From NCBI GenBank assembly GCA_012270995.1, contig JAAXHG010000151.1, forward strand, positions 279 through 64,278: 64,000 bases of DNA, given 5' to 3'. Each line of letters begins with the position of its first letter. The first letter of the stretch is position 1. The DNA comes from Vicinamibacteraceae bacterium. GTDB lineage: Bacteria > Acidobacteriota > Thermoanaerobaculia > Multivoradales > Multivoraceae. The notes under the pieces are model-generated. The model saw nothing but the letters and a program-made list of their open reading frames with translations, ran no database searches and was not told the DNA's origin. Made by a program: the position numbers and the translations under genes. Of the stretch, positions 944 to 18,093 are shown one piece after another.

Positions 944-2782
944 TTGAAGCATCGAGCCAGTCCAGGAAGCCGCGCGGCGACGGCGATCGCCTGCTGCATC
1001 GCCCTGCCGGCGGCCGCCGTCGGCGCGCCGGTCGATACCGCCGGTCACCCATGGGTTGGCGACCTGGCGCCGCTGGCCGAGTCGGACTTCGGCTACGAGC
1101 AGGCGGCGCACCTGCTGGAACGGGCGGGGTTCGGCGGCACGCCGGCGGAGATCGAGGAACTCGTTTCGCTCGGGCTGGAAGGCGCGGTCGCCCGGCTCGT
1201 CGACTACGAGGCGATCGACGACTTGGCGCTTGCGCCGTTCGACGAGTCCGGGATCTGGGATCCGGGAATGGACCCGTTCCCGCCCAGCCGGGCGGCGGCG
1301 GTGCGAAGGGCGCGGCGGCACGGACGGGCGCTCGGCGTCGACGTACTGCCCGAGGGTTCGTCGCGGCCGATCCAGCCCGTCGTCGACAAGTTCTTCTACG
1401 GGCTGCGCAGCAACGTGCTGGAGACGCGGCGGCTGGCGCTGTGGTGGGCCGACCGGATGGTGGCGACGCCGCGGCCGCTCGAAGAGAAGATGACCCTCTT
1501 CTGGCACGACCACTTCGCGACCTCGGAGGTCAAGGTCCGCGACGCCCGCAAGATGCACCTGCAGAACCGGACCCTGCGCGCTCACGCCACGGCGGACTTC
1601 AAGAGCCTGGTGCTCGCGGTCATGCGCGATCCGGCGATGCTGGTCTACCTCGACAACCGGGAGAACGTGAAGGACCACCCGAACGAGAACTTCGGCCGCG
1701 AGCTGCTCGAACTGTTCACGATGGGGATCGGCAACTACACCGAGCAGGACATCCGGGAGGCGTCGCGGGCGTTCACCGGCTGGACGAACGACGTCCTGGA
1801 CTTCCGGTTCAAAGCCGATCTCCACGACGACGGTCCGAAGACCTTCCTGGGGCGCGAGGGCGCCCTGGGCGGTGAGGAAGTGCTCGACATCATCCTCGAG
1901 CAGCCGGCCACCGGCGAGTTCCTCGCCGGCAGGGTCTACCGCTACCTGGTTCGGGAGGAGCTCGACTCGGCGCTCCAGGTCGAACTGGGTCGTCGCCTGC
2001 GCGAATCCGGGTACGAGATGAAGGCGCTGCTGCGGACGATCCTCTCGTCGCGGGACTTCTACAGCCCGCCGTCGGTCGCCACCCAGATCAAGAGCCCGGT
2101 CGCACTGTTCGTCTCGACCTACCGCAAGCTCGGCGTGCCGAGGGCGCCCACGGTGCCCGACGTGAACAGTCTCGCGGGGCGCCTGGGCCAACAACTGCTG
2201 TACCCGCCGAACGTCGCCGGCTGGGCGGGTGGACGGACCTGGATCACGCCGGCGACGTTGCTCGAGCGCGGCAACGCGATGCGCTCCGTCCTCTTTCCGC
2301 CCACCCTCGAGGAGTTCGGCCATCCGGACCGGCGGATGCCCGGGATCTACCGCCAGGTCGGCGAGCGGCTGGCGCGGGGCATGACGATCACGGCGGCGAC
2401 CAGGCAGGGCGACGCCGCGTCCAACACGCTGGCCGACGCGGACGAGGAGTACAACACCCGCTACGGCGGCTATCGCGGCTACGTGGTGGCCTACGAACGG
2501 GTCAAGCTCGTGCCGCGCCACGTCCTCGACGTTGACGTCCGGGCGATGGTGCTGGCGGCCGGCGCTACCGACGCCGAGGGAGCGGTCGACCACCTCCTGC
2601 ACCGGTTCCTGCGCGTTCCGCTGACGGGCCGAGGACGCGCGGCGCTGGTCCGGCACCTGGAGCGCGAGCTGGAGTCGACCGGTCTGAAAGCACAAGACCC
2701 CGGCGCACCGGAGAGAGTCGAGGAAGCGCTACGCTCGACGCTCTACCTCGTCTTCAGTTCGCCCGAGTATCAGTTGGGCTGA
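944..2782 (+). CDS. DUF1800 family exported protein
   Basis: AAHLLERAGFG, LEEKMTLFWHDHFAT, PAMLVYLDN, PNENFGRELLELFTMG, C-terminal SPEYQL; signal-like N-terminus. Confidence 0.9.
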   Translation: MKHRASPGSRAATAIACCIALPAAAVGAPVDTAGHPWVGDLAPLAESDFGYEQAAHLLERAGFGGTPAEIEELVSLGLEGAVARLVDYEAIDDLALAPFDESGIWDPGMDPFPPSRAAAVRRARRHGRALGVDVLPEGSSRPIQPVVDKFFYGLRSNVLETRRLALWWADRMVATPRPLEEKMTLFWHDHFATSEVKVRDARKMHLQNRTLRAHATADFKSLVLAVMRDPAMLVYLDNRENVKDHPNENFGRELLELFTMGIGNYTEQDIREASRAFTGWTNDVLDFRFKADLHDDGPKTFLGREGALGGEEVLDIILEQPATGEFLAGRVYRYLVREELDSALQVELGRRLRESGYEMKALLRTILSSRDFYSPPSVATQIKSPVALFVSTYRKLGVPRAPTVPDVNSLAGRLGQQLLYPPNVAGWAGGRTWITPATLLERGNAMRSVLFPPTLEEFGHPDRRMPGIYRQVGERLARGMTITAATRQGDAASNTLADADEEYNTRYGGYRGYVVAYERVKLVPRHVLDVDVRAMVLAAGATDAEGAVDHLLHRFLRVPLTGRGRAALVRHLERELESTGLKAQDPGAPERVEEALRSTLYLVFSSPEYQLG

Positions 2783-2793
2783 GGAGTTCCCCT

Positions 2794-4050
2794 ATGGCTG
2801 AACGACTTCCTTGCGGCTGTTCGCGGCGCGACTTCCTGCACCGCGGCCTCCTTGGACTCGGTGTCGCCGCCGGTCTGCCGGCGGTCCTTGGCCGTACGTC
2901 GGCGGCGCTCGCGCTGGAAGAACTGCGGTCGGGGATCGCCGACGCGTCGGGACGCATTTTGGTCGTCGTGGAACTCTCCGGCGGCAACGACGGGCTGAAC
3001 ACGGTCATCCCGTTCCGGAACGACGAATACTACCGAGTGCGCCCGAACCTGGGCATCCGCCCGAAGCGGGCGATCAAGCTCACCGAGGAGGCCGGGTTCC
3101 ACCCGTCGCTCGTCGGCATGGAGGGCCTGTACAAGGACGGGAACCTGGCGGTCGTCGAGGGCTGCGGCTATCCGAACCCGAGCCTGTCCCACTTCTCGTC
3201 GATGGGCTTCTGGCACACCGGCGTGCCGAACGGCGGCGAGGCGCTCGGCTGGCTTGGCCGTCTCGCCGACGATCACGGTCCGGACGGCACGCCGAACTAC
3301 ATCGTCAACGTGGCTAGCTCCCAGTCCCTGGCGGTGCGCGCGGCCCGGCACTCGCCATTGGTGTTCGACGACCCGGGCCGTCTGCGGCGCCAGGGCACGC
3401 CGGGCGAGAAGCAGGCGCTCGGCCAGTTCGGCACGGACGAGGCGAGCGGCAACGACGCGCTCGACTTCCTGCGCGGCACGGCCGCCAACGCCGCTTCCAG
3501 CGCGGCGCTCGTGCGGGACGCGTGGTCCGGCTACCGCACGCCGGTCGACTACGGCATCGGCGGCCTCGGCGCCGACCTGCGCAAGGTCGCGGCCCTGATC
3601 GAGGCCGAACTGCCCACCCGCATCTACTACGTGAGCTTCCGCGGCAACTCGTTCGACACCCATGTCCACCAGGCCGACACCCACGCCCGGCTGCTGATGT
3701 ACATGTCCGACGCGGTTGCCGGCTTCCTGCGCGACGTCGACCGAATCGGCCGGGCCGACGACGTGGCGGTGCTGATGTTCACCGAGTTCGGCCGGCGGGT
3801 GGAGGAAAACGCGAGCCTCGGCACCGACCACGGCACCGCGGGCCCGATGTTCGTCGCCGGCAAGGGCGTCGCCGGCGGCTTCTACGGCGACGCGCCTGAT
3901 CTCACCGATCTCGACGACGGCAACCTGAAGATGACGACCGACTTCCGGCGGGTCTACGCGTCGATGATCGAGGGCTGGATGGGCATGGACGACGCCTCCG
4001 CCGTCCTCAAGGGCGAGTTCCCGGCGCTGCCGGTGTTCGGCGTGACGTAG
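2794..4050 (+). CDS. DUF1501 family protein, Tat-exported
   Basis: SRRDFL Tat motif; LVVVELSGGNDGLNTVIP, SHF, FDTH, TEFGRR, GTDHG. Confidence 0.9.
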   Translation: MAERLPCGCSRRDFLHRGLLGLGVAAGLPAVLGRTSAALALEELRSGIADASGRILVVVELSGGNDGLNTVIPFRNDEYYRVRPNLGIRPKRAIKLTEEAGFHPSLVGMEGLYKDGNLAVVEGCGYPNPSLSHFSSMGFWHTGVPNGGEALGWLGRLADDHGPDGTPNYIVNVASSQSLAVRAARHSPLVFDDPGRLRRQGTPGEKQALGQFGTDEASGNDALDFLRGTAANAASSAALVRDAWSGYRTPVDYGIGGLGADLRKVAALIEAELPTRIYYVSFRGNSFDTHVHQADTHARLLMYMSDAVAGFLRDVDRIGRADDVAVLMFTEFGRRVEENASLGTDHGTAGPMFVAGKGVAGGFYGDAPDLTDLDDGNLKMTTDFRRVYASMIEGWMGMDDASAVLKGEFPALPVFGVT

Positions 4051-4064
4051 GCTTCGGGCCGGAA
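3915..4064 (+). repeat. 150-bp direct repeat, copy 1 (3' end of DUF1501 gene + 14 bp)
   Basis: Matches 5648-5797 with 2 substitutions. Confidence 0.95.
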
Positions 4065-4070
4065 ACCGTG

Positions 4071-4150
4071 GAGCCCGGACCGGCACTTCGTCTCCTTTCG
4101 GCCCATCTGCCGAATCTGAAGGGCTTGGCCATCCGCGACCGAGGCGGGGT
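4071..4150 (+). pseudogene. Fragment of the ATPase/TOPRIM gene (homologous to 14961-15041)
   Basis: gaccggcacttcgtctcctttcggcccatctgccgaatctgaagggcttggccatccgcgaccgag vs gaccggcacttcttctcccttcggccgatgctgccgaatctgaaggggctggcgattcgcgaccgag. Confidence 0.8.
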
Positions 4151-4181
4151 TGACACCGAGTCTTGGTTGTGTTCGGATCTT

Positions 4182-4260
4182 GGCTGCGGTGGCCGCTTGG
4201 AGCGGCTGATCGCAGTTTCCGCCTGAGCCCGACCCCCAGTTTGTAATGGGTAGGGCGGTT
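4182..4260 (+). ncRNA. Putative structured RNA upstream of NYN gene (candidate RNA antitoxin or leader)
   Basis: TTGACA at 4150-4155; hairpin 4182-4217 with G-U pairs; bulged hairpin GCCC-G-ACCC...GGGT-A-GGGC 4227-4256; followed by terminator. Confidence 0.45.
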
Positions 4261-4265
4261 GTCAT

Positions 4266-4296
4266 AGGGGCTCCCCAAGGGAGCCCCTCTTTGTTT
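4266..4296 (+). terminator. Intrinsic terminator directly upstream of NYN gene
   Basis: AGGGGCTCCC-caa-GGGAGCCCCT perfect 10-bp stem followed by ctttgttt. Confidence 0.75.
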
Positions 4297-4309
4297 GCCT
4301 GGAGGCATC

Positions 4310-5533
4310 GTGGACTACGTGGCGGTCTTCGTGGACGCCGGTTATCTGTTTGCTGCTGGTTCGGACGCTCTCAGCGGCAAGGTTCTCCCCCGAGGCGCAA
4401 CGCGCCTGGACTTGGACGACACCGTGGAGGCGCTGAAGGACATCGCCGAGCGAGCGTCCGGCGGCCTCCGGCTCCTGAGGATCTACTGGTACGACGGTAC
4501 CCAGGGGGAGCCGACCCTGATGCACCGTCGGCTAGCCAGGCACGCTCACGTCAAGGTGAGGCTGGGCATCGTGGACAGTCGCGGCCAGCAGAAGGGCGTG
4601 GATTCCCTCCTGGTGACGGACATGATCGCCTTGGCGCGCAACCGGGCGATGACGGAGTGCGTCCTGCTTTCCGGCGACGAGGACGTCAGGGTAGGGGTAC
4701 AACAGGCGCAGGAGTACGGAATTCGCGTTCACCTGTTGGGGGTGGGAACGGCGGCCTACAACCAGTCGGACCTGCTCGTTCAGGAAGCGGACGAACACTG
4801 GTTCTGGAAGGCAGACGATCTGAAGGCCTTCCTGACGATCAGGCTGCCGACCGAGACCGATGGGGCCAGGCCTCGCTCGCCCGAAGAGGTCGACCGGCGT
4901 TTGCTGGAGGTGGCGCGGACTGAGGCTGCCGAGGTCCCGGCGGGCGAGCGCGAGAAGATGAGCGGCTCCATCCGGCGCACAGGTCTACGGCCCAAGGAGA
5001 TAGACAGGCGGTTGTTGGGAAGGGCGGCAGGCGAGGCGCTTGACGGCGGGGTGCTGAGCGAGGAGCACAAGCGGCGTGTCCGAGACGCATTCCTGGAGTC
5101 CTTGGTCGAACTGCACGAGGTAGACACCGACGAAGCGTCCGGTTGCGCCCCTGAGGAGGTGTCCCGAGGCCGTCAGGGAGCGGCAAGTAGCGGCCAGTCC
5201 GCCGCGGAACAGATGGACGACGAACACGCGGACGCGGTCCAGGTGGACGAAGAACCCGCACTCGGCGCTGGAGATACGGCCGAGCGCTTGGTCGAAGTGG
5301 CGCGTAGCGAGGCGGAATCCGTGCCGGCGGGACGCCGAGAGGAGCTGATTCGCCACATCGAAGAGACCGGCTACCGGCCCCGAGAGGTCGACGCCGCCCT
5401 GCTGGCAAGGTGCTCGCGCGAGGTGCTCGGCGGCCGGGTGTTGGACGAAAGCCAACGGAAGCGGGCCCGGGACGCCTTCTCGGCGGCTCTGCGCGAGCTT
5501 CTACAGGTGGCGGCCGAGCCTGAAGACGAGTGA
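4310..5533 (+). CDS. NYN (LabA/DUF88, PIN-like) ribonuclease with duplicated C-terminal helical domain
   Basis: VFVDAGYL, LLRIYWYDG, QQKGVD, LLSGDED; GGAGG RBS at 4301 before GTG 4310; two ~70-aa C-terminal repeats. Confidence 0.88.
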   Translation: MDYVAVFVDAGYLFAAGSDALSGKVLPRGATRLDLDDTVEALKDIAERASGGLRLLRIYWYDGTQGEPTLMHRRLARHAHVKVRLGIVDSRGQQKGVDSLLVTDMIALARNRAMTECVLLSGDEDVRVGVQQAQEYGIRVHLLGVGTAAYNQSDLLVQEADEHWFWKADDLKAFLTIRLPTETDGARPRSPEEVDRRLLEVARTEAAEVPAGEREKMSGSIRRTGLRPKEIDRRLLGRAAGEALDGGVLSEEHKRRVRDAFLESLVELHEVDTDEASGCAPEEVSRGRQGAASSGQSAAEQMDDEHADAVQVDEEPALGAGDTAERLVEVARSEAESVPAGRREELIRHIEETGYRPREVDAALLARCSREVLGGRVLDESQRKRARDAFSAALRELLQVAAEPEDE

Positions 5534-5618
5534 TCGTCGGTTTGCTTACCGGTTCGCGGGCCTTGCTCCCTATCAGGGCGCCTCGTCGGCGGCTGCGGCA
5601 GCCTGTTCGTCGGCCAGC

Positions 5619-5797
5619 ATGTCCGACGCCGTCGCCGGCTTCCTGCGCGACGGCAAGCTGAAGATGACGATCGACTTCCGGCGGGTCTACGCGTCGATGA
5701 TCGAGGGCTGGATGGGCATGGACGACGCCTCCGCCGTCCTCAAGGGCGAGTTCCCGGCGCTGCCGGTGTTCGGCGTGACGTAGGCTTCGGGCCGGAA
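5619..5797 (+). repeat. Direct repeat copy 2: internally deleted duplicate of DUF1501 3' end
   Basis: 5619-5652 matches 3703-3736, joined at cgacg microhomology to 5648-5797 (= 3915-4064). Confidence 0.92.
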
Positions 5798-5862
5798 GGA
5801 TGTCCGGCTTCGGGGATCAGGTCGGCACTGAGATCGGACGGCACGGGAGGCCGCTGAGCGGG

Positions 5863-8226
5863 ATGAACAAGCGGGATCTGACCGAGACCGACATCCGCAC
5901 GAAGTTCATCACGCCCGCGCTGCGGAAGGCCGGGTGGGACGAGATGTCGCAGCTTCGCGAGGAGGTGAGCTTCACGGACGGCCGCATCACCGTGCGCGGC
6001 AAGCTGGTCTCGCGCGGCAAGCGGAAGCGCGCCGACTACGTCCTCGACTTCAAGCCGAACATTCCGGTCGCGGTGATCGAGGCGAAGGACAACAGGCACG
6101 GCGTCGGCGACGGCATGCAGCAGGCCTTGGACTACGCCGAGACCCTGAACATCCCGTTCGCGTTCTCGTCGAACGGCGACGGCTTCGTGTTCCACGACCG
6201 CACGGGGGCCAGTACGCCTCGCGAGACGAACCTGCCGCTCGACGCGTTTCCGTCACCGGTCGATCTGTGGGCCCGCTATCGGGCCTGGAAGGGCCTGGCG
6301 CCCGAAGCCGAGGAGATCGTCCTCCAGGATTACTTCGAGGACCCTGGCGGCAAGACGCCGCGCTACTACCAGATCAACGCCGTCAACGCGGCGGTCGAGG
6401 CCATCGCCAGAGGCCGGGACCGCGTCCTGCTCGTGATGGCCACGGGCACGGGCAAGACGTACACCGCCTTCCAGATCATCTGGCGGTTGTGGAGGGCGCG
6501 GCGCAAGAAGCGGATTCTGTTCCTCGCCGATCGCAACGTGCTGATCGACCAGACGATCGCGAACGACTTCCGCCCGTTCGGCGGCGCGATGACCAAGCTC
6601 TCGCGGCGGATCGACCCGTCCTACGAGGTCTACCTCGGCCTCTACCAGGCGATCACGGGGCCGGAGGAGCGGCAGAAGGCCTACCGGAAGCTGTCGCCTG
6701 GTTTCTTCGACCTGATCGTGATCGACGAGTGCCATCGCGGCAGCGTGGCCGAGGATTCGGCGTGGCGCGAGATCCTCGAGTACTTCTCGTCCGCCACGCA
6801 GATCGGTCTGACCGCGACGCCGAAGGAGACGAGGTACGTCTCGAACATCTCGTACTTCGGCGAGCCGGTTTACTCCTACTCCCTGAAGCAGGGCATTCGG
6901 GACGGTTTCCTCGCGCCCTACAAGGTGGTCAAGGTCCACATCGACCGGGACGTCGAAGGTTACCGTCCGGAGAAGGGCCAGCGTGACCGCGACGGCGAGG
7001 AGGTGGAAGACCGCGTCTACAACGCGCGCGACTTCGACCGTACCCTGGTCCTTGACGGACGCACGAAGCTCGTGGCGGAGAAGGTCACCGCCTTTCTGCG
7101 AGAGACCGGAGACCGCTTCCAGAAGGCGATCGTCTTCTGCGTCGATCAGGAGCACGCCGCCCGGATGCGCCAGGCGCTCGTCAACGAGAACGCCGATCTG
7201 GTCGAACGCAACGCGCGGTACGTCATGCGGATCACGGGCGCGGACGAGGCCGGAAAGGCCGAACTGGGCAACTTCATCGATCCGGAATCGACGCACCCGG
7301 TGCTCGTCACCACCTCGCGCCTGCTGTCCACCGGCGTCGATGTCCAGACCTGCCGCGTCATCGCGCTCGACCGTCCTGTCGGCTCGATGACCGAGTTCAA
7401 GCAGATCGTCGGCCGCGGCACGCGAGTGCACGAGGACACCGGGAAGCTCTACTTCACGCTGATGGACTTCCGCGGCGCGGCGGATCACTTCGCCGACCCG
7501 GAGTTCGACGGCGAACCGGCGCAGGTTTACGAGCCGGGCGAGGGCGACCCCATGGCGCCGCCCGACGACCTTGAAGAACCGGGGGAGAGTCTCGGGGACG
7601 ACGAGATGCGCGACCTGATGGGAAACGGTCTCCTGCCGCCGGGGCCGGGGCCGGGGCCGGGGAAGAAGATCTACGTCGACGGCGTCGAGGCGGACATCGT
7701 CGCGGAGCGCGTCCAGTACCTCGACGGCCGCGGCAAACTCGTGACCGAATCCCTGCGCGACTTCACGCGGAGGGCCTTGCGCCGGCGCTTCGCCAGCCTC
7801 GACGACTTCCTGAATCGGTGGAACGCGGCCGAGCGGAAGCAGGCGGTCATCGAAGAGGTGGCCGCGGAGGGCCTGCCGCTGTCGATCATCGTCCAGGAAC
7901 TGAACCGGGACCTGGACCCCTTCGATCTCGTCTGCCACGTCGCCTTCGACGCCAGGCCGCTCACCCGCCGCGAGCGGGCCGAGAACGTCAGGAAACGGGA
8001 CGTGTTCACGAAGTACGGAGGACAGGCCCGCGCGGTGCTCGGCGCCTTGCTCGAGAAGTACGCCGACGAGGGCGTCATCGATCTCGACGACGCCAACGTG
8101 CTCAGGATCCCGCCGCTCGACCGTCTCGGCACGCCGGTCGAGTTGGTCGGCGCCTTCGGCGGAAAGCCCGGTTTCCAGCGTGCCGTCCGCGATCTTCAAT
8201 CGGCGCTCTATGGCGAGGTCGCCTGA
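5863..8226 (+). CDS. hsdR: Type I restriction enzyme R subunit (EcoAI/EcoEI-like)
   Basis: ADYVL...IEAK nuclease motif; MATGTGKT, DECHRG, GLTATP, QIVGRGTR; EcoEI-type C-terminus. Confidence 0.93.
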   Translation: MNKRDLTETDIRTKFITPALRKAGWDEMSQLREEVSFTDGRITVRGKLVSRGKRKRADYVLDFKPNIPVAVIEAKDNRHGVGDGMQQALDYAETLNIPFAFSSNGDGFVFHDRTGASTPRETNLPLDAFPSPVDLWARYRAWKGLAPEAEEIVLQDYFEDPGGKTPRYYQINAVNAAVEAIARGRDRVLLVMATGTGKTYTAFQIIWRLWRARRKKRILFLADRNVLIDQTIANDFRPFGGAMTKLSRRIDPSYEVYLGLYQAITGPEERQKAYRKLSPGFFDLIVIDECHRGSVAEDSAWREILEYFSSATQIGLTATPKETRYVSNISYFGEPVYSYSLKQGIRDGFLAPYKVVKVHIDRDVEGYRPEKGQRDRDGEEVEDRVYNARDFDRTLVLDGRTKLVAEKVTAFLRETGDRFQKAIVFCVDQEHAARMRQALVNENADLVERNARYVMRITGADEAGKAELGNFIDPESTHPVLVTTSRLLSTGVDVQTCRVIALDRPVGSMTEFKQIVGRGTRVHEDTGKLYFTLMDFRGAADHFADPEFDGEPAQVYEPGEGDPMAPPDDLEEPGESLGDDEMRDLMGNGLLPPGPGPGPGKKIYVDGVEADIVAERVQYLDGRGKLVTESLRDFTRRALRRRFASLDDFLNRWNAAERKQAVIEEVAAEGLPLSIIVQELNRDLDPFDLVCHVAFDARPLTRRERAENVRKRDVFTKYGGQARAVLGALLEKYADEGVIDLDDANVLRIPPLDRLGTPVELVGAFGGKPGFQRAVRDLQSALYGEVA

Positions 8227-8229
8227 GAT

Positions 8230-9681
8230 ATGTCCGTCAGCACCCTGGTCAAGTCGATTCAGAACATCATGCGCCAGGACGCGGGCGTCGACGGCGACGC
8301 CCAGCGCATCAGCCAACTGTGCTGGATGTTCTTCCTCAAGATCATCGACGACCAGGACCAGGAACTCGAACTCTTCGACGACGGCTACCGCTCGCCCGTG
8401 CCCGCGGACCTGCGATGGCGGAGCTGGGCGGCCGACCCGGAAGGCATCACCGGCGAGGAACTGCTCGCCTTCGTCAACGGCGATCTCTTTCCCCGGCTCA
8501 AGGACCTCTCGCCCAGGACCGGCCCTCGCGCGAGCGTCGTGCGCGAAGTGTTCGAGGACGCGTACAACTACATGAAGTCGGGTCAGTTGATGCGGCAGGT
8601 GGTCAACAGGATCGACGGCATCGACTTCAACAACCTGGCCGCCCGCCAGCACTTCGGCGACATCTACGAGCAGATCCTGAACGACCTGCAATCGGCCGGC
8701 AACGCGGGCGAGTACTACACGCCGCGGGCCGTGACCACCTTCATGGCCCGGATGATCGACCCGAAGCCGGGCGAGATCCTGTTCGACCCGGCTTGCGGCA
8801 CGGGCGGGTTCCTCACCTGCGCCGTCCGGCACATGCGCGAGCGGTACGTGAAGCGGCCCGAGGACGAGACGGGCATGCAGGCGTCCCTCCGGGCCGTCGA
8901 GAAGAAGCCGCTTCCCCACATGCTCGCCACGACGAACATGCTGCTGCACGGCATCGAGGACCCGTCCTTCCTGCGCCACGACAACACCCTGGCGCGGCCC
9001 TACGTCTCCTGGGGCAAGGACGAGCGCGTGGACATCGTGCTGACCAATCCGCCGTTCGGCGGCAAGGAGGAGGACGGCATCGAGTCGAACTTCCCGCGGC
9101 ACTTCCGGACGCGGGAGACGGCGGATCTGTTCCTGGCCCTGATCGTCCGGCTGCTCAAGCCTGGAGGCAGGGCCGCCGTCGTCCTGCCGGACGGCTCCCT
9201 GTTCGGCGAAGGGGTCAAGACGCGGCTCAAGGAGCACCTGATGAAGGAGTGCAACCTGCACACCGTCGTGCGCCTGCCGAGCTCCGTGTTCCGTCCGTAC
9301 GCCTCGATCGGGACGAACCTGCTGTTCTTCGAGAAGGGCGAACCCACCGGGGACGTCTGGTTCTGGGAGCATCTCGTGCCCGAAGGCCAGAAGGCGTACT
9401 CCATGACACGGCCCATCCGGGTGGAGCATCTCGACGACTGCGCCGCCTGGTGGGGCGGGGCTGAGCGCGCGGGCCGGGAGGAGGGCGGCCGAGCCTGGAA
9501 GATGAGCGCCGAGGAGATCAGGGCGCGCGGCTACAACCTGGACATCCGGAACCCGCGCGCCGAGGAGGAGGACCTTGGCGATCCCGAGGCGCTTCTCGAG
9601 GAACTGACGAGCGCCGAGGCCGAGGTGGCGGCGGCGCGAGACGAGTTGAAGCGAGTCCTGACCGAGGCGCTCCTGCGGTGA
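8230..9681 (+). CDS. hsdM: Type I RM N6-adenine methyltransferase subunit
   Basis: GEYYTPR, DPACGTGGFL, TNPPFG. Confidence 0.95.
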   Translation: MSVSTLVKSIQNIMRQDAGVDGDAQRISQLCWMFFLKIIDDQDQELELFDDGYRSPVPADLRWRSWAADPEGITGEELLAFVNGDLFPRLKDLSPRTGPRASVVREVFEDAYNYMKSGQLMRQVVNRIDGIDFNNLAARQHFGDIYEQILNDLQSAGNAGEYYTPRAVTTFMARMIDPKPGEILFDPACGTGGFLTCAVRHMRERYVKRPEDETGMQASLRAVEKKPLPHMLATTNMLLHGIEDPSFLRHDNTLARPYVSWGKDERVDIVLTNPPFGGKEEDGIESNFPRHFRTRETADLFLALIVRLLKPGGRAAVVLPDGSLFGEGVKTRLKEHLMKECNLHTVVRLPSSVFRPYASIGTNLLFFEKGEPTGDVWFWEHLVPEGQKAYSMTRPIRVEHLDDCAAWWGGAERAGREEGGRAWKMSAEEIRARGYNLDIRNPRAEEEDLGDPEALLEELTSAEAEVAAARDELKRVLTEALLR

Positions 9682-11438
9682 ACGCCGACCGTTTGCTCGC
9701 GCTCTACGACCGCGTGGCGGAGGCGCCGGACGCCGTTGGCCGCCTGCGGCGATTCGTGCTGGACCTCGCCGTGCGGGGAAAGTTGGTGGAGCAGGATCCG
9801 GCGGATGAGCCGGCGTCGGAGTTGCTGAAGAGGATCGAGGCCGAGAAGGCGCGGTCGGTGAAGGCTGGGAACCTGAGAAGGCGGAAGCTGCCTTCTCGTT
9901 TCGGTGAGCCACCCTTCGCCCTTCCCGCGAATTGGCGTTGGTCTCGAATCGGCGACGTCGCAGGTGATCGAGGTCAGGGAATCCCCGACCGACCGTTTAC
10001 CTACATCGATGTGTCGGCCATCGACAAGAAGGCAGGTGTGGTCGCCGATCCGAGGGTGTTGGAGCCTGACAAGGCACCCAGCCGAGCTCGCAAGGTCGCA
10101 CGGTCCGGTGACGTTGTCTACTCCTGCGTTCGCCCGTACCTCTTGAATGTTGCCATCATCGAAGGTGATTACGACCCTCCCCCGATCGCCAGCACGGCAT
10201 TCGAGGTCTTGAACGGATACGGGCTCGTGCTGCCTCGGTACACGTGGATCGTCCTCCGCAGTTCGTTCATGATTGCGTGTGTTGAGCGAAGTCAGCGCGG
10301 CCAAGCGTACCCCGCGATCAACAGCACGGACTTCGCCGTTCTTCCTTTCCCACTCCCGCCCCTCGCCGAGCAGCACCGCATCGTCGCCAAGGTCGATGAA
10401 CTCATGGCCCTGTGCGACCGTCTGGACGAGGTCCGGGTCGCCCGCGAGGCTGGTCGGGATCGGTTGACCAGGGCCAGTCTGAGCCGCCTGAGCGCCCCCG
10501 AGCCCCCCGAAACGACCCGTTGCACGACCCGGGACGGCGGAAGCGTCGCCGCCGACCGCCCGGTCGCGGCGCGTCCGTTTCGTTCCCAGGCCCGGTTTGC
10601 CGTCGATGCCCTGCCCGCGCTCACCGCGCGCGCGGACCAGGTCGAGCATCTGCGCCAGACGATCCTCAACCTGGCCGTGCGTGGCAAGCTGGTGAGGCAG
10701 GACCCGGCGGACGAGTCGGCTTCGGAGTTGTTGAAGCGAATGACGGAGTCACTCCCGACACCGCGAAAGGTCCGGCAGCGGAAAACCGCTGCACGCCACG
10801 GCACTCCGGAGCGTCCCTTCGAGGTTCCTTGCTCTTGGAAATGGGCGGCGATCAACGTGGTCACTCAGGTGAACATGGGGCAGTCTCCCCGGTCCGAGCA
10901 CTACAACCGGACAGGTGCCGGCATGCCCTTTTTCCAGGGGAAGGCGGACTTCGGAGTGCGCCATCCTACTCCGCGCTTCTGGTGTACCAAGCCAACCAAG
11001 ATCGCCGAGCCCGGAGACATTCTGCTCTCGGTTCGCGCGCCCGTGGGGCCAACGAACGTGGCCGCTCAGAGATGCTGTATCGGACGGGGCTTGGCAGCAC
11101 TGCGTCCGCTTCCAGGACTCTCCTCCGACTTCCTACTACTCACCCTGCGAGCCTTTCGTGCCGACTTGGCGGCGCAGGGCTTCGGGACTACATTCGAGGC
11201 AATCACCAAGAAACAGTTGCTGTCCTACGGGCTCCCTCTCGCGCCCCTCGCCGAGCAGCGCCGCATCGTCGCCAAGGTCGACGAACTCATGGCGCTCTGC
11301 GATCGCCTGGAGGCAGGACTTGGCACTGCGGAGGCCAACCGAGGTCGTCTGCTCGACTCCCTGCTCCGTGACTCACTGACCTCTCACGAGACCGCGAGCG
11401 CCCAAGATGCCCTTGGCGCTGCGAGAGCCGGGGCATGA
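9678..11438 (+). CDS. hsdS: Type I RM specificity subunit
   Basis: Two TRDs bounded by repeated LAVRGKLV.QDPADE.ASELL and PLAEQ.RIVAKVDELMALCDRL. Confidence 0.93.
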   Translation: MNADRLLALYDRVAEAPDAVGRLRRFVLDLAVRGKLVEQDPADEPASELLKRIEAEKARSVKAGNLRRRKLPSRFGEPPFALPANWRWSRIGDVAGDRGQGIPDRPFTYIDVSAIDKKAGVVADPRVLEPDKAPSRARKVARSGDVVYSCVRPYLLNVAIIEGDYDPPPIASTAFEVLNGYGLVLPRYTWIVLRSSFMIACVERSQRGQAYPAINSTDFAVLPFPLPPLAEQHRIVAKVDELMALCDRLDEVRVAREAGRDRLTRASLSRLSAPEPPETTRCTTRDGGSVAADRPVAARPFRSQARFAVDALPALTARADQVEHLRQTILNLAVRGKLVRQDPADESASELLKRMTESLPTPRKVRQRKTAARHGTPERPFEVPCSWKWAAINVVTQVNMGQSPRSEHYNRTGAGMPFFQGKADFGVRHPTPRFWCTKPTKIAEPGDILLSVRAPVGPTNVAAQRCCIGRGLAALRPLPGLSSDFLLLTLRAFRADLAAQGFGTTFEAITKKQLLSYGLPLAPLAEQRRIVAKVDELMALCDRLEAGLGTAEANRGRLLDSLLRDSLTSHETASAQDALGAARAGA

Positions 11439-12583
11439 CTCGCGTGCCGGTAACCCCGGAGATGCTGCGCTGGGCCTGTGAGCGCTCCGGGCGCGGCATG
11501 GCGGACCTTGCGGCCCGCGTTCCTCAGCTTCCGGCCTGGGTACGAGGCGAGAAAAAGCCGACGCTCAAGCAGCTGGAGAAACTCGCCGCGGCTACGCGGA
11601 CGCCGTTCGGCTACCTGTTCCTGCGCGAACCGCCGGAGGAGCGCCTTCCGGTTCCCGACTTTCGCACCGTGTGGGGCGCCTCGCGGACGAGACCGAGTCC
11701 CGACCTGCTGGACACGCTCTACGCCATGCAGCGTCGCCAGGACTGGCTCCGGGAGTGCCTGCTCGAGAGCGACGTGGAACCGCTGCCGTTTGCGGGAAGC
11801 GCCCGTTTGACGGATGACCCGGCGTCCGTGGGTCACGAGATGCGGCGAGTACTCGGTCTCGATGACGGTTGGGCGGCGGGCGTAAGCACTTGGCGGGACG
11901 CCGTGAGGGAGCTTCGTCGGACCATCGAGCAGGCCGGCGTGATGGCCGTGATCAACGGAGTCGTCGGGAACAGCACAAGCCGGAAGCTGAGCGTGGAGGA
12001 GTTTCGAGGCTTTGCGCTCGCCGATGCCTACGCGCCGTTGATCTTTGTGAACGGCGCCGACGCCAAGTCGGCGCAGATGTTCACGCTCGCTCACGAGCTG
12101 GCTCACATCTGGCTTGGCACGGAGGGGGTCTCCGGCTTCGCGTCCCTGTTCCCCGGCGGTTCGGAGGTGGAGGACTGGTGCAACGCCGCCGCGGCTGAAC
12201 TTCTCGTCCCATCGGAAGAACTGGCGCCTCGTTGGCACGAGGTGAGGAGGGGGCCAAGGCCCTTCGAGACGCTCGCCCGGGCGTTCAAGGTGAGTCCGGT
12301 CGTTGCCGCCCGCCGGGCGCTGGACCTGGACCTTGTCGACGGCGACGTTTTTCGCAACTTCTACAGGCGGTATGTCAAACGCGATCGTGCGACTGGCGCC
12401 AGTTCCACTGGGGGCGACTTCTACAACAACCAGAACACCCGTGTGGGCGAGCTGTTCGCGTCCCACGTGCTCCGCGCGGCGATGGAGGGCCGCATTGGAT
12501 TCAAGGAAGCCTACGACCTGACTGGCTTGCGTGGCGGCACCTTCCAGAAGTACGCGAGGCGACTGGGCGTGAATCTCCCATGA
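11435..12583 (+). CDS. XRE-HTH + ImmA/IrrE (peptidase M78/DUF955) protein
   Basis: N-terminal HTH (WVRGEKKPTLKQLEKLA); FTLAHELAH HExxH; E..CN..AAELL. Confidence 0.9.
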   Translation: MTRVPVTPEMLRWACERSGRGMADLAARVPQLPAWVRGEKKPTLKQLEKLAAATRTPFGYLFLREPPEERLPVPDFRTVWGASRTRPSPDLLDTLYAMQRRQDWLRECLLESDVEPLPFAGSARLTDDPASVGHEMRRVLGLDDGWAAGVSTWRDAVRELRRTIEQAGVMAVINGVVGNSTSRKLSVEEFRGFALADAYAPLIFVNGADAKSAQMFTLAHELAHIWLGTEGVSGFASLFPGGSEVEDWCNAAAAELLVPSEELAPRWHEVRRGPRPFETLARAFKVSPVVAARRALDLDLVDGDVFRNFYRRYVKRDRATGASSTGGDFYNNQNTRVGELFASHVLRAAMEGRIGFKEAYDLTGLRGGTFQKYARRLGVNLP

Positions 12584-13103
12584 CCAAGGACACGACCTAC
12601 CTCGTGGACTCGGATGTGTTCATCACGGCGAAGAACCTGTACTACGCGTTCGGCTTGTGCCCCGGGTTCTGGAAGAGCGTTCTGCACCACCACCGCGGGG
12701 GGAGGATCTTCAGCGTCGACCGGGTTCGCGGTGAACTCCTCGTGGTACCGAGACGGAGGATCTCGTGCAGTGGGTCAAGGAAGAGGTTCCGCGGGAGTTC
12801 TTTCTTCCGGTGGATGCCGATGCTGTCGTGAGCGCCTACACGGAGATCATGATGTGGGTGCAGCGCCACGCGAGGTACTTCGACCACGCCAAGGCGAAGT
12901 TCGCCACGGGCGCGGACGGCTGGTTGGTTGCCTGCGCGCGGGTTCAGGGCGCGGCCGTGGTCACGAACGAGACGGAGGCGCCCGAGTCCCGGAGGGAGAT
13001 CAAACCTCCCGACGTGTGCGAGGAGTTCGGTGTGGAGCACCCCAACGTCTTCGAGATGCTCCGGGCGCTGGACGTCCGGTTCAACTGGACGGAGGCCCGT
13101 TGA
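12580..13103 (+). pseudogene. DUF4411 PIN-like nuclease, frameshifted near 12742
   Basis: YLVDSDVFITAKNLYYAF..CPGFW in one frame continues as EDLVQWVK...ADGWLVACA..VVTNE..IKPPDVC in another; ATGA overlap with upstream gene. Confidence 0.82.
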
Positions 13104-13116
13104 GTCACCTTGGCAC

Positions 13117-13659
13117 ATGATCGACTTCCGCCTGGACAACAACTGCCTCGTCAATCTCGATCCAGGCGCCTCCGACAAAGCGAGGAACCACGACAGCGCG
13201 GCTGCTCTTCGAGAATTGGTCAAACAGGCACCGGAGCACGTCTGGTTCTCCTGGGAGAGCTCCTCCGAACGAGGTCCCGGCGGCGCAGAGCCCGAGAGGT
13301 TCCCGGCACGATTCCGTGAACGCCTTCAGAGGATAGGCATCGCAGAAAGCCAAGGCGTGTTGTCCGCGTCGGTCGTTGGACACATGCGGTTGGACTACTC
13401 TCGCCTGCCAATGGAGAACGAAAGCGTCCTGTCGAGATCGATGGCGCAAGTGCTGCTTGGCCATGCGCTGGTAGACGAGAGGAAGAGAAGCCGGCGGTGT
13501 GACGTATGGGAGTCAGGCCATGAGCCTTGTCCAGATTCGCGCAGAGCCGAGCGGCTGGAAGTGCGAACGCGGCTGCGTGGGAGAGCGGTTCGGAGAGCCT
13601 ATGGCGCAGCTTCTGGTCTGGTTGTCGTCGGAGTGGCGGCTCACGCCGAAGGAGTGTGA
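13117..13659 (+). CDS. Hypothetical protein, possibly degenerate PIN-like
   Basis: MIDFRLDNNCLVNL N-terminus resembles a PIN beta1-Asp motif; C-terminal half looks degraded. Confidence 0.4.
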   Translation: MIDFRLDNNCLVNLDPGASDKARNHDSAAALRELVKQAPEHVWFSWESSSERGPGGAEPERFPARFRERLQRIGIAESQGVLSASVVGHMRLDYSRLPMENESVLSRSMAQVLLGHALVDERKRSRRCDVWESGHEPCPDSRRAERLEVRTRLRGRAVRRAYGAASGLVVVGVAAHAEGV

Positions 13660-13722
13660 GGCCGCCTTGGGAGTACCGAGAACCCGGCACCAGGAAGCGT
13701 GGTGTGGAGGAGAGTCGAGAAG

Positions 13723-15519: not shown

Positions 15520-15526
15520 CGCCGGG

Positions 15527-15560
15527 CGCCTGGAGGTGTCGCGGTGGATCGGGTGACGTT
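15527..15560 (+). pseudogene. Probable remnant of an NYN gene start (RBS + first codons)
   Basis: gcctggagg...GTG GAT CGG GTG vs gcctggagg..GTG GAC TAC GTG at 4297-4321. Confidence 0.4.
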
Positions 15561-15722
15561 GATCACCGCGAAACCGGCCGACAGTCAGCCGGGTCATCCA
15601 GCGGGCTGGAAATGCGACGGTTAGCGTTAGCGTTAGCCGCGTACCGGTGGGAAGCTGGATTTTGACCCCACTGCCCGCCGGCGCCGACCGGGACGGCGGC
15701 CATGGCCGCCTATAATGCGGCG

Positions 15723-16651: not shown

Positions 16652-16656
16652 GACGG

Positions 16657-16761
16657 ATGGACAAGCGAGCGCTCTCGGAGCGCGAAGCCCGGACGATGTT
16701 CATCACGCCCGCCCCGCGCGGGATGCGGCAGGCGCTGGACTGCGCCGAGATTCTGAACGTA
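16657..16761 (+). pseudogene. Collapsed hsdR remnant
   Basis: MDKRALSEREARTMFITPA~MNKRDLTETDIRTKFITPA joined in frame to MRQALDCAEILNV~MQQALDYAETLNI. Confidence 0.8.
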
Positions 16762-16856
16762 CGGCCGCGCGTCGGCGTGCTGCCGCCGGTATCGACTTCA
16801 CGAGTACCGGCCCCTGAACATGTCTTTTTCAAAGTTCGGGTTACAATCCGTCATGG

Positions 16857-18053: not shown

Positions 18054-18093
18054 GTGGTCGATGCGGCAACGGCGGCGTGACTCAGGCCGAAGC

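What the first reader, a model, noticed from the sequence alone, without database searches (positions are those of the whole stretch)
4150..5533. Candidate RNA-antitoxin/NYN-RNase module with type III TA-like architecture
Seen: TTGACA (4150), then two compact hairpins (4182-4217; 4227-4256), a perfect 10-bp GC stem with a T-rich tail (4266-4296), a small inverted repeat over the RBS (TGCCT-gg-AGGCA, 4296-4307), then the NYN ribonuclease gene. Known: promoter > structured RNA > intrinsic terminator > RNase is the layout of type III TA/Abi systems (ToxIN, CptIN, TenpIN), where the terminator keeps the RNA antitoxin in excess. Inference: this is an NYN/LabA-family anti-phage toxin neutralised or guided by a cis-encoded ~110-nt RNA. 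It is the first gene of a defence island. The -10 element is not clear.
Basis: partly seen in the sequence, partly recalled or inferred. Interest (0 to 1): 0.85.

Follow-up and report, generated by a model that had tools for sequence, protein, structure and literature searches.

The report
Conserved leader RNA gating NYN ribonuclease
A small structured RNA with a built-in transcription stop, found in no RNA family library searched, sits in front of a mobile ribonuclease gene here and in many other bacteria, plasmids and prophages, and probably keeps that enzyme in check.

Summary
At 4150-4310 there is a -35 box, an extended -10, two hairpins, a GC-rich intrinsic terminator and an RBS, followed by a LabA-type NYN gene at 4310-5533.

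The promoter > hairpin > UA-rich linker > terminator > NYN layout recurs upstream of homologs that share only 40-65% protein identity:
- 64 of 78 metagenome loci
- 17 of 18 viral-contig loci
- 4 of 4 alphaproteobacterial plasmid loci

On a structure-blind alignment, 15 of 17 pairs show compensatory changes. Rfam 15 has no such family. Within genomes the element is single-copy and tied to NYN.

It is not a type III TA member. It has no tandem repeats, and the protein has the NYN fold rather than a ToxN-like one.

The cassette stands alone with no conserved protein partner. It is sporadic and often decayed. It occupies a genomic hotspot here, moron-like positions in prophages, and sits beside a RES-Xre TA on a named Sinorhizobium plasmid.

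Best reading (0.4): a partner RNA made in excess that restrains the RNase, which is type III-like logic. Close rival (0.3): a cis-acting autoregulatory attenuator. Toxicity and a short transcript remain untested.

The parts
4071..4150 (+). Relic of an AriA/GajA/OLD-like ATPase gene. It lies just upstream of the promoter and is not part of the module.
   Evidence: 86% identical over 80 nt to 14961-15041, which lies inside ORF 13699-15519. PADLOC gives AriA/GajA hits for that ORF.
4150..4178 (+). Promoter: -35 TTGACA (4150-4155), 17-nt spacer, TG (4170-4171), -10 TCGGAT (4173-4178)
   Evidence: Sequence. The same register is kept in the 7 closest leaders. A promoter-like site lies upstream of the RNA in 37 of 59 distinct homologous leaders, against 1 of 59 control windows. 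The consensus scan did not call it.
4184..4215 (+). Hairpin P1, an accessory 5' hairpin found only in the window's subgroup
   Evidence: Fold. 2 of 5 outer pairs change on both sides among 8 sequences. Absent from most homologs, in which the -10 ends 4-9 nt before P2.
4219..4258 (+). Hairpin P2, the core of the motif. Outer stem 4219-4223/4254-4258, inner stem 4227-4230/4248-4251, loop 4231-4247 (GAC...AAU).
   Evidence: All 8 P2 pairs change on both sides in the 44-leader alignment. The consensus loop ends are GAYUA...RAAU. The covariance-model hit is 4227-4296 at 34.8 bits.
4259..4265 (+). Linker UUGUCAU (family consensus YUAYUA / CAUACAAA)
4266..4297 (+). Intrinsic terminator: stem-loop 4266-4288 and U-rich tail 4289-4297
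   Evidence: 7 of 9 stem pairs change on both sides across homologs. My script finds a terminator-like hairpin 8-56 nt before the start codon in 61 of 77 metagenome loci.
4301..4305 (+). Ribosome-binding site GGAGG
   Evidence: Sequence
4310..5533 (+). NYN gene, 407 aa. NYN domain aa 4-163. Four-helix C-terminal domain aa ~186-282, duplicated at aa ~314-407.
   Evidence: Pfam. AlphaFold2 mean pLDDT 88.6. Fold matches to 2qip and the MARF1 NYN domain. Family alignments with invariant Asp residues. Typical relatives are 265-307 aa with one C-terminal domain.
5618..5797 (+). Duplicated, internally deleted 3' end of the DUF1501 gene. It is a scar between the NYN cassette and the type I R-M island.
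   Evidence: 5648-5797 is 99% identical to 3915-4064, and 5618-5652 is 94% identical to 3702-3736. In relatives hsdR follows DUF1501 directly.

Best explanation
This is a self-contained RNA-RNase cassette. One sigma-70-type promoter fires just upstream of a hairpin, which has conserved GAYUA...RAAU loop ends and a UA-rich linker. Most transcripts stop at the GC-rich intrinsic terminator, giving a stable RNA of about 70 nt (about 110 nt here, because of the extra hairpin P1). The LabA-type NYN ribonuclease is made only by read-through.

The short RNA is the protein's own partner. It is bound by the four-helix C-terminal domain and/or the active site, and so holds the nuclease in check. The terminator sets the excess of RNA over protein. 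This is the logic of a type III toxin-antitoxin or abortive-infection module, carried out by unrelated parts: a single non-repeated hairpin RNA and a NYN-fold enzyme.

Shown: the anatomy, its conservation and covariation, its exclusive link to this gene family, and the stand-alone, mobile nature of the cassette.

Inferred: that the short RNA accumulates, that it binds the protein, and that the protein is harmful when unrestrained.
For: 1. The RNA is real.
- On a structure-blind MAFFT alignment of 44 leaders, 86.3% of cells pair, against 77.3% in shuffles (0 of 500 reach it).
- The covariation score is 0.441 against 0.254.
- 15 of 17 pairs change on both sides.
- Slid controls pair at 62% or less.

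2. The RNA is tied to the gene.
- The covariance model hits directly upstream of NYN in 64 of 78 metagenome loci that have upstream sequence; 47 of these score 38.7 bits or more. The hit ends 0-46 nt before the start codon.
- The same holds in 17 of 18 viral-contig loci and in 4 of 4 plasmid loci.
- In the own genome and in 5 other NYN-bearing genomes, the best hit is always the NYN leader.
- Among 151 genomes of the phylum, only the NYN leaders of G225 and G152 score above 50 bits, and G000's own leader scores 34.8. The next 12 hits that I read (27-33 bits) are ordinary gene-end terminators with no NYN nearby.

3. There is one promoter for both products. A promoter-like site occurs in 37 of 59 distinct leaders, against 1 of 59 controls. 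In 27 of the 37 the -10 ends 4-9 nt before the hairpin.

4. No protein partner exists. No neighbouring gene is shared by more than 4 of the 80 loci.

5. The RNA occurs as a free-standing extra copy.
- Azospirillum thermophilum has two units upstream of NYN. Each has its own promoter-like site and an identical terminator (40.9 and 31.5 bits).
- L051 has a second unit 540 nt past NYN (35.3 bits).

6. The terminator stem sequence is unusually conserved. For example, two pairs are G-C in 42 of 44 leaders. This hints that the stem is read as part of the RNA.

7. The cassette has the lifestyle of conflict cargo.
- It is sporadic: 11 of 401 genomes of the phylum and 6 of 41 other genomes of the genus.
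- Several copies are frameshifted or have lost the nuclease core.
- It is one of several alternative cargos at a hotspot.
- It sits among tail genes and next to AbiTii, Rha and Bro in viral contigs.
- It sits next to a RES-Xre TA on pNGR234a.

8. Catalytic-type Asp residues are invariant in 77 sequences, and the fold is NYN.
Against: - There is no measurement of toxicity, RNA binding or a short transcript.
- The only RNA-library data are assembled contigs. One contig (X3, 99% identical) runs from 4241 across the terminator to 4530, and another (X1) runs from 4011 to 4907. This is compatible with read-through or with DNA carry-over, and says nothing about a short RNA.
- Extra RNA copies were seen in only 2 of about 100 loci and could be duplication debris. 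The second Azospirillum unit and the L051 unit score in or near the range that plain terminators reach (up to 32.7 bits), so I rely on reading them.
- The neighbours I could name in 8 acidobacterial loci are housekeeping genes.
- PADLOC and NCBIfam do not know the protein as a defence gene.
- By base rate (my own knowledge), leader motifs in front of genes for RNA-binding proteins are usually cis-acting autoregulatory sites.
- 14 of 78 loci lack the element. They fall in a few small clades, so the enzyme can exist without it.
Confidence: 0.4

Rival explanations
1. A purely cis-acting autoregulatory attenuator. The leader is a binding or cleavage site (a substrate mimic) for the NYN protein. 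The protein then tunes its own synthesis by changing termination or leader stability. The terminated RNA has no role of its own.
For: - The motif is exclusive to one family of RNA-cleaving proteins.
- The terminator sits 0-46 nt before the start codon, the usual geometry of attenuators.
- The L051 second copy lies 58 nt before another ORF, as a transferable cis element would.
- From my own knowledge, not from a call: RNase E, RNase III and PNPase autoregulate through their 5' leaders, and eukaryotic Regnase-1 does so through a stem-loop in its own mRNA.
Against: - I saw no conserved alternative (antiterminator) pairing.
- The upstream unit in A. thermophilum has its own promoter-like site and terminator and no ORF of its own. 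That makes little sense for a cis-only element.
- 6 distant homologs of the L051 second gene have no motif.
- The gene is accessory and mobile, not a housekeeping RNase that needs homeostasis.
Confidence: 0.3
2. A riboswitch, or a leader read by a factor other than NYN. Candidates are a small molecule or ion, a tRNA, or a host or phage antitermination factor. The factor decides whether the terminator forms.
For: - There are conserved unpaired nucleotides next to a terminator, as in terminator-type riboswitches.
- In prophages the cassette lies inside late (tail) gene regions. Antiterminated transcription could read through it there.
Against: - The element is a single simple hairpin.
- It is tied to only one gene family, with no transport or metabolic genes.
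- No conserved antiterminator was seen and no extra covarying pairs were found.
Confidence: 0.12
3. A passive expression cassette. A strong promoter, a stabilising 5' hairpin and a leaky terminator simply keep the level of a mobile gene low and insulated. Nothing senses or binds the RNA.
For: - Morons in prophages typically carry their own promoter and terminator (my own knowledge).
- The cassette is found in such positions.
Against: A passive hairpin would not keep specific loop ends (GAYUA...RAAU) and a specific linker across phyla while its stem covaries. Nor would it keep a near-constant terminator stem sequence.
Confidence: 0.1
4. The hairpins are chance structures, or are only the terminator of the upstream DUF1501 gene.
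For: The terminator lies 216 nt downstream of the DUF1501 stop codon. GC-rich DNA folds readily.
Against: The same element travels with NYN in unrelated genomic contexts that have no DUF1501 gene. The covariation is strong. The fold z-score is -3.3.
Confidence: 0.02

Closest known systems
Type III toxin-antitoxin / abortive-infection systems (ToxIN, CptIN, TenpIN)
   Same: The order is promoter > short structured RNA > intrinsic terminator > endoribonuclease gene on one transcript, so RNA should exceed protein. The module has two parts and no protein antitoxin. It occurs on mobile elements and prophages.
   Different: - The RNA is a single hairpin, not an array of 2-5.5 tandem repeats.
- The protein has a NYN (PIN-like) fold plus a four-helix domain, not a ToxN/AbiQ-type fold.
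- There is no evidence that the enzyme processes the RNA, or that it is toxic or anti-phage.
LabA/DUF88 NYN-domain proteins (Pfam PF01936; structures 2qip and the MARF1 NYN domain)
   Same: The N-terminal 165 aa match the family by sequence and by fold, and keep the acidic residues. Sources name relatives 'LabA/DUF88 family' or 'NYN domain-containing protein'.
   Different: This subfamily adds a four-helix C-terminal domain of about 95 aa. That domain has no clear solved relative (best Z 6.8, within the noise for helical bundles). It is not the OST-HTH/LOTUS domain that I recall as often fused to NYN; Pfam found none. The subfamily also carries the leader RNA.
Autoregulatory 5' leaders of ribonuclease genes (rne, rnc, pnp leaders; Rfam rne5, rne-II, Actino-pnp). 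Names are recalled from memory.
   Same: A structured leader specific to the gene of an RNA-cleaving enzyme.
   Different: Those genes are universal housekeeping genes, and their leaders are not built around an intrinsic terminator. None of these Rfam models matches here.
Terminator-type attenuators and riboswitches
   Same: A conserved hairpin with unpaired conserved bases, followed by a terminator just before the RBS.
   Different: No alternative pairing was found. The element is linked to one gene family only. Free-standing extra copies exist.
Partner RNAs encoded beside nuclease genes of mobile elements (omega RNA of IscB/TnpB, bridge RNA of IS110). Recalled from memory.
   Same: A conserved structured RNA encoded next to, and upstream of, a mobile nuclease-type gene. 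These RNAs were first seen only as 'RNA motifs'.
   Different: The RNA here is much smaller. The variable part is only about 5-11 nt of the loop. There is no transposon structure and no evidence of guiding.

Membership tests
Type III toxin-antitoxin (ToxIN/CptIN/TenpIN) | The antitoxin gene is an array of tandem direct repeats | tested here: not met
   Tandem Repeats Finder at minimum score 30 finds nothing in 3900-4310. The repeat finder shows no repeat inside the leader. Homologous leaders have one unit, apart from two separate promoter-bearing units in A. thermophilum.
Type III toxin-antitoxin (ToxIN/CptIN/TenpIN) | The toxin belongs to the ToxN/AbiQ, CptN or TenpN protein families | tested here: not met
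   Pfam finds only NYN. PADLOC finds 0 families. The predicted fold matches NYN structures.
Type III toxin-antitoxin (ToxIN/CptIN/TenpIN) | An intrinsic terminator lies between the RNA and the toxin gene, on one transcription unit | tested here: met
Type III toxin-antitoxin (ToxIN/CptIN/TenpIN) | The toxin is growth-inhibiting, and it binds and processes the RNA | not testable with these tools
   Needs expression and binding assays.
NYN / LabA-DUF88 (PF01936) | Profile match above the curated cut-off | tested here: met
   48.2 bits against 24.2, aa 4-163
NYN / LabA-DUF88 (PF01936) | NYN (PIN-like) fold | tested here: met
   Foldseek: 2qip, E 8.5e-7, TM(target) 0.74. MARF1 NYN domain 5yaa/6fdl, E 1.5e-4 to 5.5e-4. 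Model pLDDT 88.6.
NYN / LabA-DUF88 (PF01936) | Conserved acidic active-site residues | tested here: met
   D62, D98, D104, D123 and D161 are invariant, and D9 and D125 are 90% or more conserved, in 77 sequences. Which of them bind metal is inferred.
NYN / LabA-DUF88 (PF01936) | Ribonuclease activity | not testable with these tools
   Needs a biochemical assay.
Any Rfam 15 RNA family | Covariance-model match to the leader | tested here: not met
   E-value scans of window 3500-6500 and of 12 homologous loci give no hit on the leader at E <= 1.
Rho-independent (intrinsic) terminator | GC-rich stem-loop followed by a U-rich tract | tested here: met
   10-bp stem, 8 G-C pairs, tail CUUUGUUUG. Conserved in 61 of 77 loci by my script.
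Riboswitch | Mutually exclusive terminator and antiterminator pairing, conserved across members | tested here: inconclusive
   None was seen by reading the alignments or by mutual information. No dedicated search was run.
Known anti-phage defence systems (PADLOC 2.0) | Protein matches a defence-system model | tested here: not met
   0 families for the NYN protein

The most novel reading that the evidence does not exclude
The leader is a trans-acting partner RNA that licenses or programmes the NYN nuclease, rather than merely blocking it. The conserved loop ends and linker would dock on the protein, and the variable 5-11 nt in the middle of the loop would select the RNA target. That would make it a minimal RNA-guided ribonuclease, carried by prophages, plasmids and hotspots across several phyla.
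Probability: 0.07. Interest if true: 0.92.

Novelty: new variant of a known kind. Interest (0 to 1): 0.7.

Why it matters
The protein family is large and has no known function. At least 2,844 protein clusters match at E <= 1e-20, named only 'LabA/DUF88' or 'NYN domain protein'.

This analysis gives the family a conserved RNA companion that is in no RNA library. I also found it in no paper in seven full-text searches.

If the RNA restrains the enzyme, this would be a fourth kind of RNA-antitoxin module, free of repeats and with a new toxin fold. It would be spread over Acidobacteriota, Alphaproteobacteria and, probably, Gemmatimonadota, and over prophages. If the RNA acts only in cis, it is a new autoregulatory attenuator class for a bacterial RNase.

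Either way it is directly testable in cultured, harmless strains such as Sinorhizobium fredii NGR234 (gene NGR_RS31030) or Azospirillum.

Tried and rejected
- RBS inverted repeat (4296-4307): rejected. The loop would be 2 nt, and the repeat is not conserved beyond the 97%-identical relative.
- Upstream ORF: the AUG inside the conserved AAUGG could start a small ORF. The GGAUUAUA...GAAUC subgroup has no AUG there, and the stems covary as RNA. Rejected.
- Loop-linker pseudoknot: some leaders show 4-nt complementarity by eye, but others show same-sense repeats instead (CUAC in both loop and linker). Mutual information over 34 canonical leaders gave only subgroup signal. Not supported.
- Conserved antiterminator: none was seen by reading. 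No dedicated search was run.
- Rfam: nothing on the leader.
- RNA evidence: only one look was allowed. Three metatranscriptome runs are kept as assembled contigs, which cannot show ends, strand or level. The raw-read run X11 laid 0 reads. There is therefore no verdict on a short transcript.
- C-terminal domain: no PDB relative by sequence profile (best E 0.044), by Foldseek (best E 0.94) or by VIA-align wide (best Z 6.8 for RomX and 6.1 for lambda Q, inside the noise stated for helical bundles). The ESM Atlas finds the same domain only in other NYN proteins.
- Genome-contig scan with the single protein found only 2 loci. I used the genome search and the metagenome scan instead.
- L051 second motif copy: its downstream gene is a real, conserved hypothetical protein of about 315 aa (30 clusters). 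Six homologs at 25-28% identity in Acidobacteriota have no motif. I could not read close relatives of that gene.
- Defence-island enrichment: I tested only immediate neighbours in a handful of loci, not statistically.
- The protein tree is the quick tree, because the careful search did not finish. One row (L074) is labelled 'motif' on the strength of a minus-strand hit only. L028 is labelled 'none' although by eye it has a hairpin, a CUACGUAG linker and a terminator.
- The covariance model misaligns P2 of the window's own subgroup. The window's score of 34.8 bits therefore understates the match, and scores of 20-33 bits overlap those of plain terminators. For viral and plasmid loci I relied on position and on reading the sequences.
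- Complex prediction was not used, because it takes no RNA.
- No supplementary files were consulted. Papers were seen only as search listings and abstract starts; none was opened.
- Genome G128 is flagged unpublished. It enters only as one of the 151 genomes tallied (its single hit scored 24.7 bits).
Full report
**What is at the coordinates**

- A perfect -35 box, TTGACA, at 4150-4155.
- Hairpin P1 at 4184-4215.
- Hairpin P2 at 4219-4258.
- A 7-nt linker.
- A 10-bp stem-loop at 4266-4288, with 8 G-C pairs and the tail CUUUGUUUG.
- GGAGG at 4301-4305 and a GTG start at 4310.

The ORF 4310-5533 matches Pfam NYN (PF01936) over aa 4-163 at 48.2 bits, against a cut-off of 24.2. The 163-nt stretch folds at -78.1 kcal/mol. 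Shuffles average -62.6, z = -3.3, and none of 200 shuffles folds as well.

The consensus promoter scan called nothing. Comparison places the -10 at TCGGAT (4173-4178), 17 nt after the -35, with an extended-10 TG at 4170-4171. The 7 closest leaders keep the same register.

The small inverted repeat over the RBS would have a 2-nt loop and is not conserved. I drop it.

**The organism and the gene's distribution**

The nearest titled record is a MAG of the Acidobacteriota, class Thermoanaerobaculia, whose protein is 96% identical.

The gene is sporadic:
- 8 of 61 relatives, counting the own genome
- 7 of 57 genomes of the family, all of them in the genus (6 of 41 other genomes)
- 11 of 401 genomes sampled from the phylum

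Several copies in the genus are broken. They carry a frameshift after aa 125, deletions of the nuclease core (aa 27-148) or internal stop codons. Three metagenome copies are truncated.

It is. In relatives that share 48-75% protein identity the same order recurs: TTGACA, a -10, hairpin(s), a GGGGCUCC...GGAGCCCC terminator, a U-rich tail and the start codon. The stems are visibly compensated.

A scan of metagenome contigs with a 10-protein alignment found 412 relatives, of which 80 loci were kept. Their upstream 130 nt show the same anatomy in most cases. My own hairpin script finds a terminator-like hairpin 8-56 nt before the start codon in 61 of 77 loci.

The core is a hairpin of about 8 bp. 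Its loop begins GAYUA and ends RAAU. It is followed by a linker of the type YUAYUA, or CAUACAAA in one clade, and then the terminator.

I wrote one structure on a MAFFT alignment of 44 leaders that was made without reference to structure.
- 86.3% of cells pair, against 77.3% in shuffles (0 of 500 as high).
- The covariation score is 0.441 against 0.254.
- 15 of 17 pairs change on both sides.
- Sliding the partner by 1-3 columns drops pairing to 42-62%.

For the window's own subgroup of 8 leaders, the window-derived structure, which includes P1, pairs in 84.1% of cells. Shuffles give 80.6% (10 of 500 as high) and slid versions give 58% or less. This is modest support on a small set, and the structure was derived from one of the sequences.

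**Specificity**

I built a covariance model, R1, and searched with it.
- It hits directly upstream of NYN in 64 of the 78 metagenome loci that have upstream sequence, ending 0-46 nt (median 12) before the start codon. 59 hits score 24.5 bits or more and 47 score 38.7 bits or more.
- In the own genome there is one good hit, the leader at 34.8 bits. The next hit scores 19.2 bits.
- In 5 other NYN-bearing genomes the best hit is always the NYN leader (55.4, 50.8, 43.9, 43.4 and 24.8 bits). All other hits score 21.8 bits or less.
- In 151 genomes of the phylum, only the NYN leaders of G225 and G152 exceed 50 bits. The next 12 hits that I read (27-33 bits) are plain terminators at gene ends with no NYN nearby.

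Scores of about 33 bits or less are therefore not diagnostic on their own. The model also misaligns the split P2 of the window's subgroup.

Rfam 15 has no family for the element.

On a quick protein tree the motif is spread over the whole family (65 of 77 rows). The rows without it cluster in a few small clades (6 changes, against 11.4 in shuffles). This pattern fits an old association with a few losses.

**One promoter for RNA and gene**

A sigma-70-like site lies within 70 nt upstream of the model hit in 37 of 59 distinct leaders, against 1 of 59 control windows taken inside the ORFs. In 27 of the 37, the -10 ends 4-9 nt before the model start, so the transcript begins at the foot of P2. In the remaining 10, to which the window's type belongs, it ends 13-42 nt upstream, which leaves room for an extra 5' hairpin.

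There is no room for a second promoter between the terminator and the start codon. NYN can therefore be made only by read-through.

**The protein**

AlphaFold2 with 77 sequences gives a mean pLDDT of 88.6. The N-terminal domain matches the LabA-like structure 2qip (E 8.5e-7) and the MARF1 NYN domain. Acidic residues D62, D98, D104, D123 and D161 are invariant, and D9 and D125 are nearly so.

The family is uniform in length at 265-307 aa: NYN domain, linker and one four-helix domain. The window's protein has 407 aa because that C-terminal domain is duplicated.

The C-terminal domain has no convincing solved relative. The ESM Atlas finds it only in other NYN proteins, of Pseudomonadota and Actinomycetota.

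PADLOC and NCBIfam have no model for the protein. At least 2,844 protein clusters match at E <= 1e-20. Where they are named at all, the names are 'LabA/DUF88 family' or 'NYN domain-containing protein'.

**Context: a stand-alone, mobile cassette**

No neighbouring gene is shared by more than 4 of the 80 metagenome loci. In 8 acidobacterial loci the flanking genes I could name are housekeeping genes, such as an M50 peptidase, lipoamide-dehydrogenase-like, fabD-like and a DNA glycosylase.

In the window's genus the site downstream of the DUF1501 gene is a hotspot. Among 29 other genomes:
- 10 have DUF1501-HHH-PQQ dehydrogenase.
- 4 have DUF1501-PQQ dehydrogenase.
- 3 have NYN there.
- 6 have an HsdR-like gene there.
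- 6 have something else.

In the window the same HHH and PQQ genes lie at 18436-19068 and 20145-22346. The order here is DUF1501, the NYN cassette, a 180-nt duplicated and internally deleted copy of the DUF1501 3' end (5618-5797), and then hsdR, whose start codon at 5800 follows at once. After that come the rest of the type I R-M system, an M78/HTH gene and an AriA/GajA-like ATPase.

NYN is thus not the first gene of that island. It is a separate cargo of the same hotspot, and this genome holds both states joined at the DUF1501 repeat. A chimeric assembly of two strains cannot be excluded with the tools at hand.

The 80 nt just before the promoter (4071-4150) are a decayed piece of a paralog of the ATPase gene at 13699-15519. 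This is another sign of past rearrangement at the site.

**Beyond the phylum**

- Eighteen IMG/VR viral contigs encode relatives. 17 of them have a model hit ending just before the gene. Read by eye, these have a promoter, a longer hairpin with ACUAC in the loop, a CAUACAAA linker and a terminator.
- Of the 10 neighbours I scanned, 7 are phage or conflict genes: a JAB/NlpC tail protein, a tip attachment protein J, a tail tube protein, TerL, Rha, Bro-N and AbiTii. Three had no family. This is the position of a moron.
- Thirteen plasmid records hold relatives, 4 of them full-length.
- On pNGR234a of Sinorhizobium fredii NGR234, and on a related plasmid, the gene lies next to a RES-Xre toxin-antitoxin pair and a ThiF-family gene. 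Both have the leader (31.1 bits).
- Azospirillum oryzae has one unit.
- Azospirillum thermophilum has two units 171 nt apart. Each has its own promoter-like site and the same terminator sequence. The upstream unit has no ORF of its own.
- Metagenome locus L051 also has a second unit, 540 nt past NYN and 58 nt before a conserved hypothetical gene. Distant homologs of that gene lack the unit.

**RNA data**

Only assembled contigs of three metatranscriptome runs touch the region. One contig, 99% identical, spans 4241-4530 across the terminator. Another spans 4011-4907, and a third begins at 4315. The raw-read run gave no reads. Contigs show neither ends nor strand and may derive from DNA. This neither supports nor refutes a short transcript.

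**What it most likely is**

Shown:
- a conserved, covarying RNA element that is new to Rfam and consists of a hairpin, a linker and an intrinsic terminator;
- its transcription from the same promoter as an active-looking NYN ribonuclease gene, to which it is almost exclusively tied;
- a cassette that stands alone and moves.

Inferred: the cassette has no protein partner, so whatever controls the enzyme is in the RNA.

I put 0.4 on a partner RNA made in excess that binds and restrains the enzyme. This is type III-like logic. What favours it is the free-standing extra units, the sequence-conserved terminator stem and the conflict-type lifestyle of the cassette.

I put 0.3 on a purely cis-acting autoregulatory attenuator. 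What favours it is the base rate for leaders of RNA-binding proteins and the geometry of the element.

I put 0.12 on a riboswitch or another outside factor, 0.1 on a passive expression cassette, and about 0.02 on chance.

**Comparison with known systems**

The cassette works like a type III TA locus in its layout. It fails two defining features of that class: there are no repeats and the toxin family does not match. It should not be filed there.

The protein is a member of the LabA/DUF88 NYN family.

I found no description of the RNA, or of an NYN-based RNA-antitoxin module, in seven full-text searches. I saw only search listings and abstract starts. Subscription journals and supplementary files were not covered.

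**Verdict**

The feature is real. It is a new variant of a known kind of system, it is widespread, and it can be tested directly in harmless cultured strains. Interest: 0.7.

Noticed in passing
window 3702-4064 and 5618-5797: The 3' end of the DUF1501 gene is present twice. 150 nt are 99% identical and 35 nt are 94% identical, and the second copy lacks the 178 nt in between. The two copies bracket the NYN cassette, and hsdR starts 3 nt after the second copy. This is either a nested recombination at a hotspot or a chimeric join of two strains in the assembly.
   Followed up: partly
genus-wide: loci L171-L199; window 4050-18436: The site downstream of DUF1501 is an integration hotspot in the genus. 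Among 29 genomes it is empty (DUF1501-HHH-PQQ) in 10 and has DUF1501-PQQ in 4. It holds NYN in 3, an HsdR-like gene in 6 and something else in 6. In the window about 12.6 kb of defence genes lie between NYN and the HHH gene.
   Followed up: partly
window 4071-4150 versus 14961-15041: An 80-nt decayed fragment lies between the DUF1501 stop codon and the NYN promoter. It is 86% identical to part of the AriA/GajA/OLD-like ATPase gene at 13699-15519 and carries two compensating 1-nt indels.
   Followed up: partly
window 4865-5155 and 5249-5530: The four-helix C-terminal domain of the NYN protein is duplicated in this genome and in its 96%-identical relative. 68 distinct relatives are 223-307 aa long, mostly 265-307, which leaves room for only one copy. 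The linker between the two copies holds a 30-nt tandem repeat at 5203-5259.
   Followed up: partly
L201 (Azospirillum thermophilum plasmid) 2700-3000: Two leader units lie in tandem upstream of one NYN gene. Each has a promoter-like site and the same terminator sequence. The upstream unit is a free-standing small RNA gene.
   Followed up: partly
L051 2840-3801: A second copy of the motif has its own TTGACG-17-TATGCT promoter and a loop made of CUA repeats. It lies 540 nt past NYN and 58 nt before a conserved hypothetical gene of about 315 aa (30 clusters, one of them named from a Gemmatimonadaceae MAG).
   Followed up: yes
L146-L163 (IMG/VR contigs): The NYN cassette occurs inside predicted phage genomes, between tail genes or next to AbiTii, Rha, Bro-N and TerL. 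This is the position of a moron.
   Followed up: partly
L200, L203 (pNGR234a and pSS05631a): On two Sinorhizobium symbiosis plasmids the NYN cassette is convergent with a RES-Xre type II toxin-antitoxin pair and lies near a ThiF-family adenylyltransferase. In the NGR234 record the annotated NYN start lies about 200 nt inside the homology region.
   Followed up: no
L021 1068-1125 and L022 1077-1134: Truncated tRNA-like matches (29-32 bits) lie about 400 nt downstream of NYN in two complete acidobacterial genomes. They may be an attachment-site remnant.
   Followed up: no
window 16185-16258/18145-18218, 5846-5924/16640-16718, 18440-18799: There are further repeats inside the island. A 74-nt repeat (86% identical) flanks the AAA_14/DUF4143 ATPase gene. 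A 75%-identical copy of the hsdR 5' end lies at 16640. A 180-nt tandem duplication lies inside the HHH gene.
   Followed up: no
L012, L014, L015, L016, L017, L060, L061, L086: NYN pseudogenes carry frameshifts, premature stops or a deletion of the nuclease core. Most still carry an intact leader. L012 has lost the terminator and L017 has lost the leader.
   Followed up: partly
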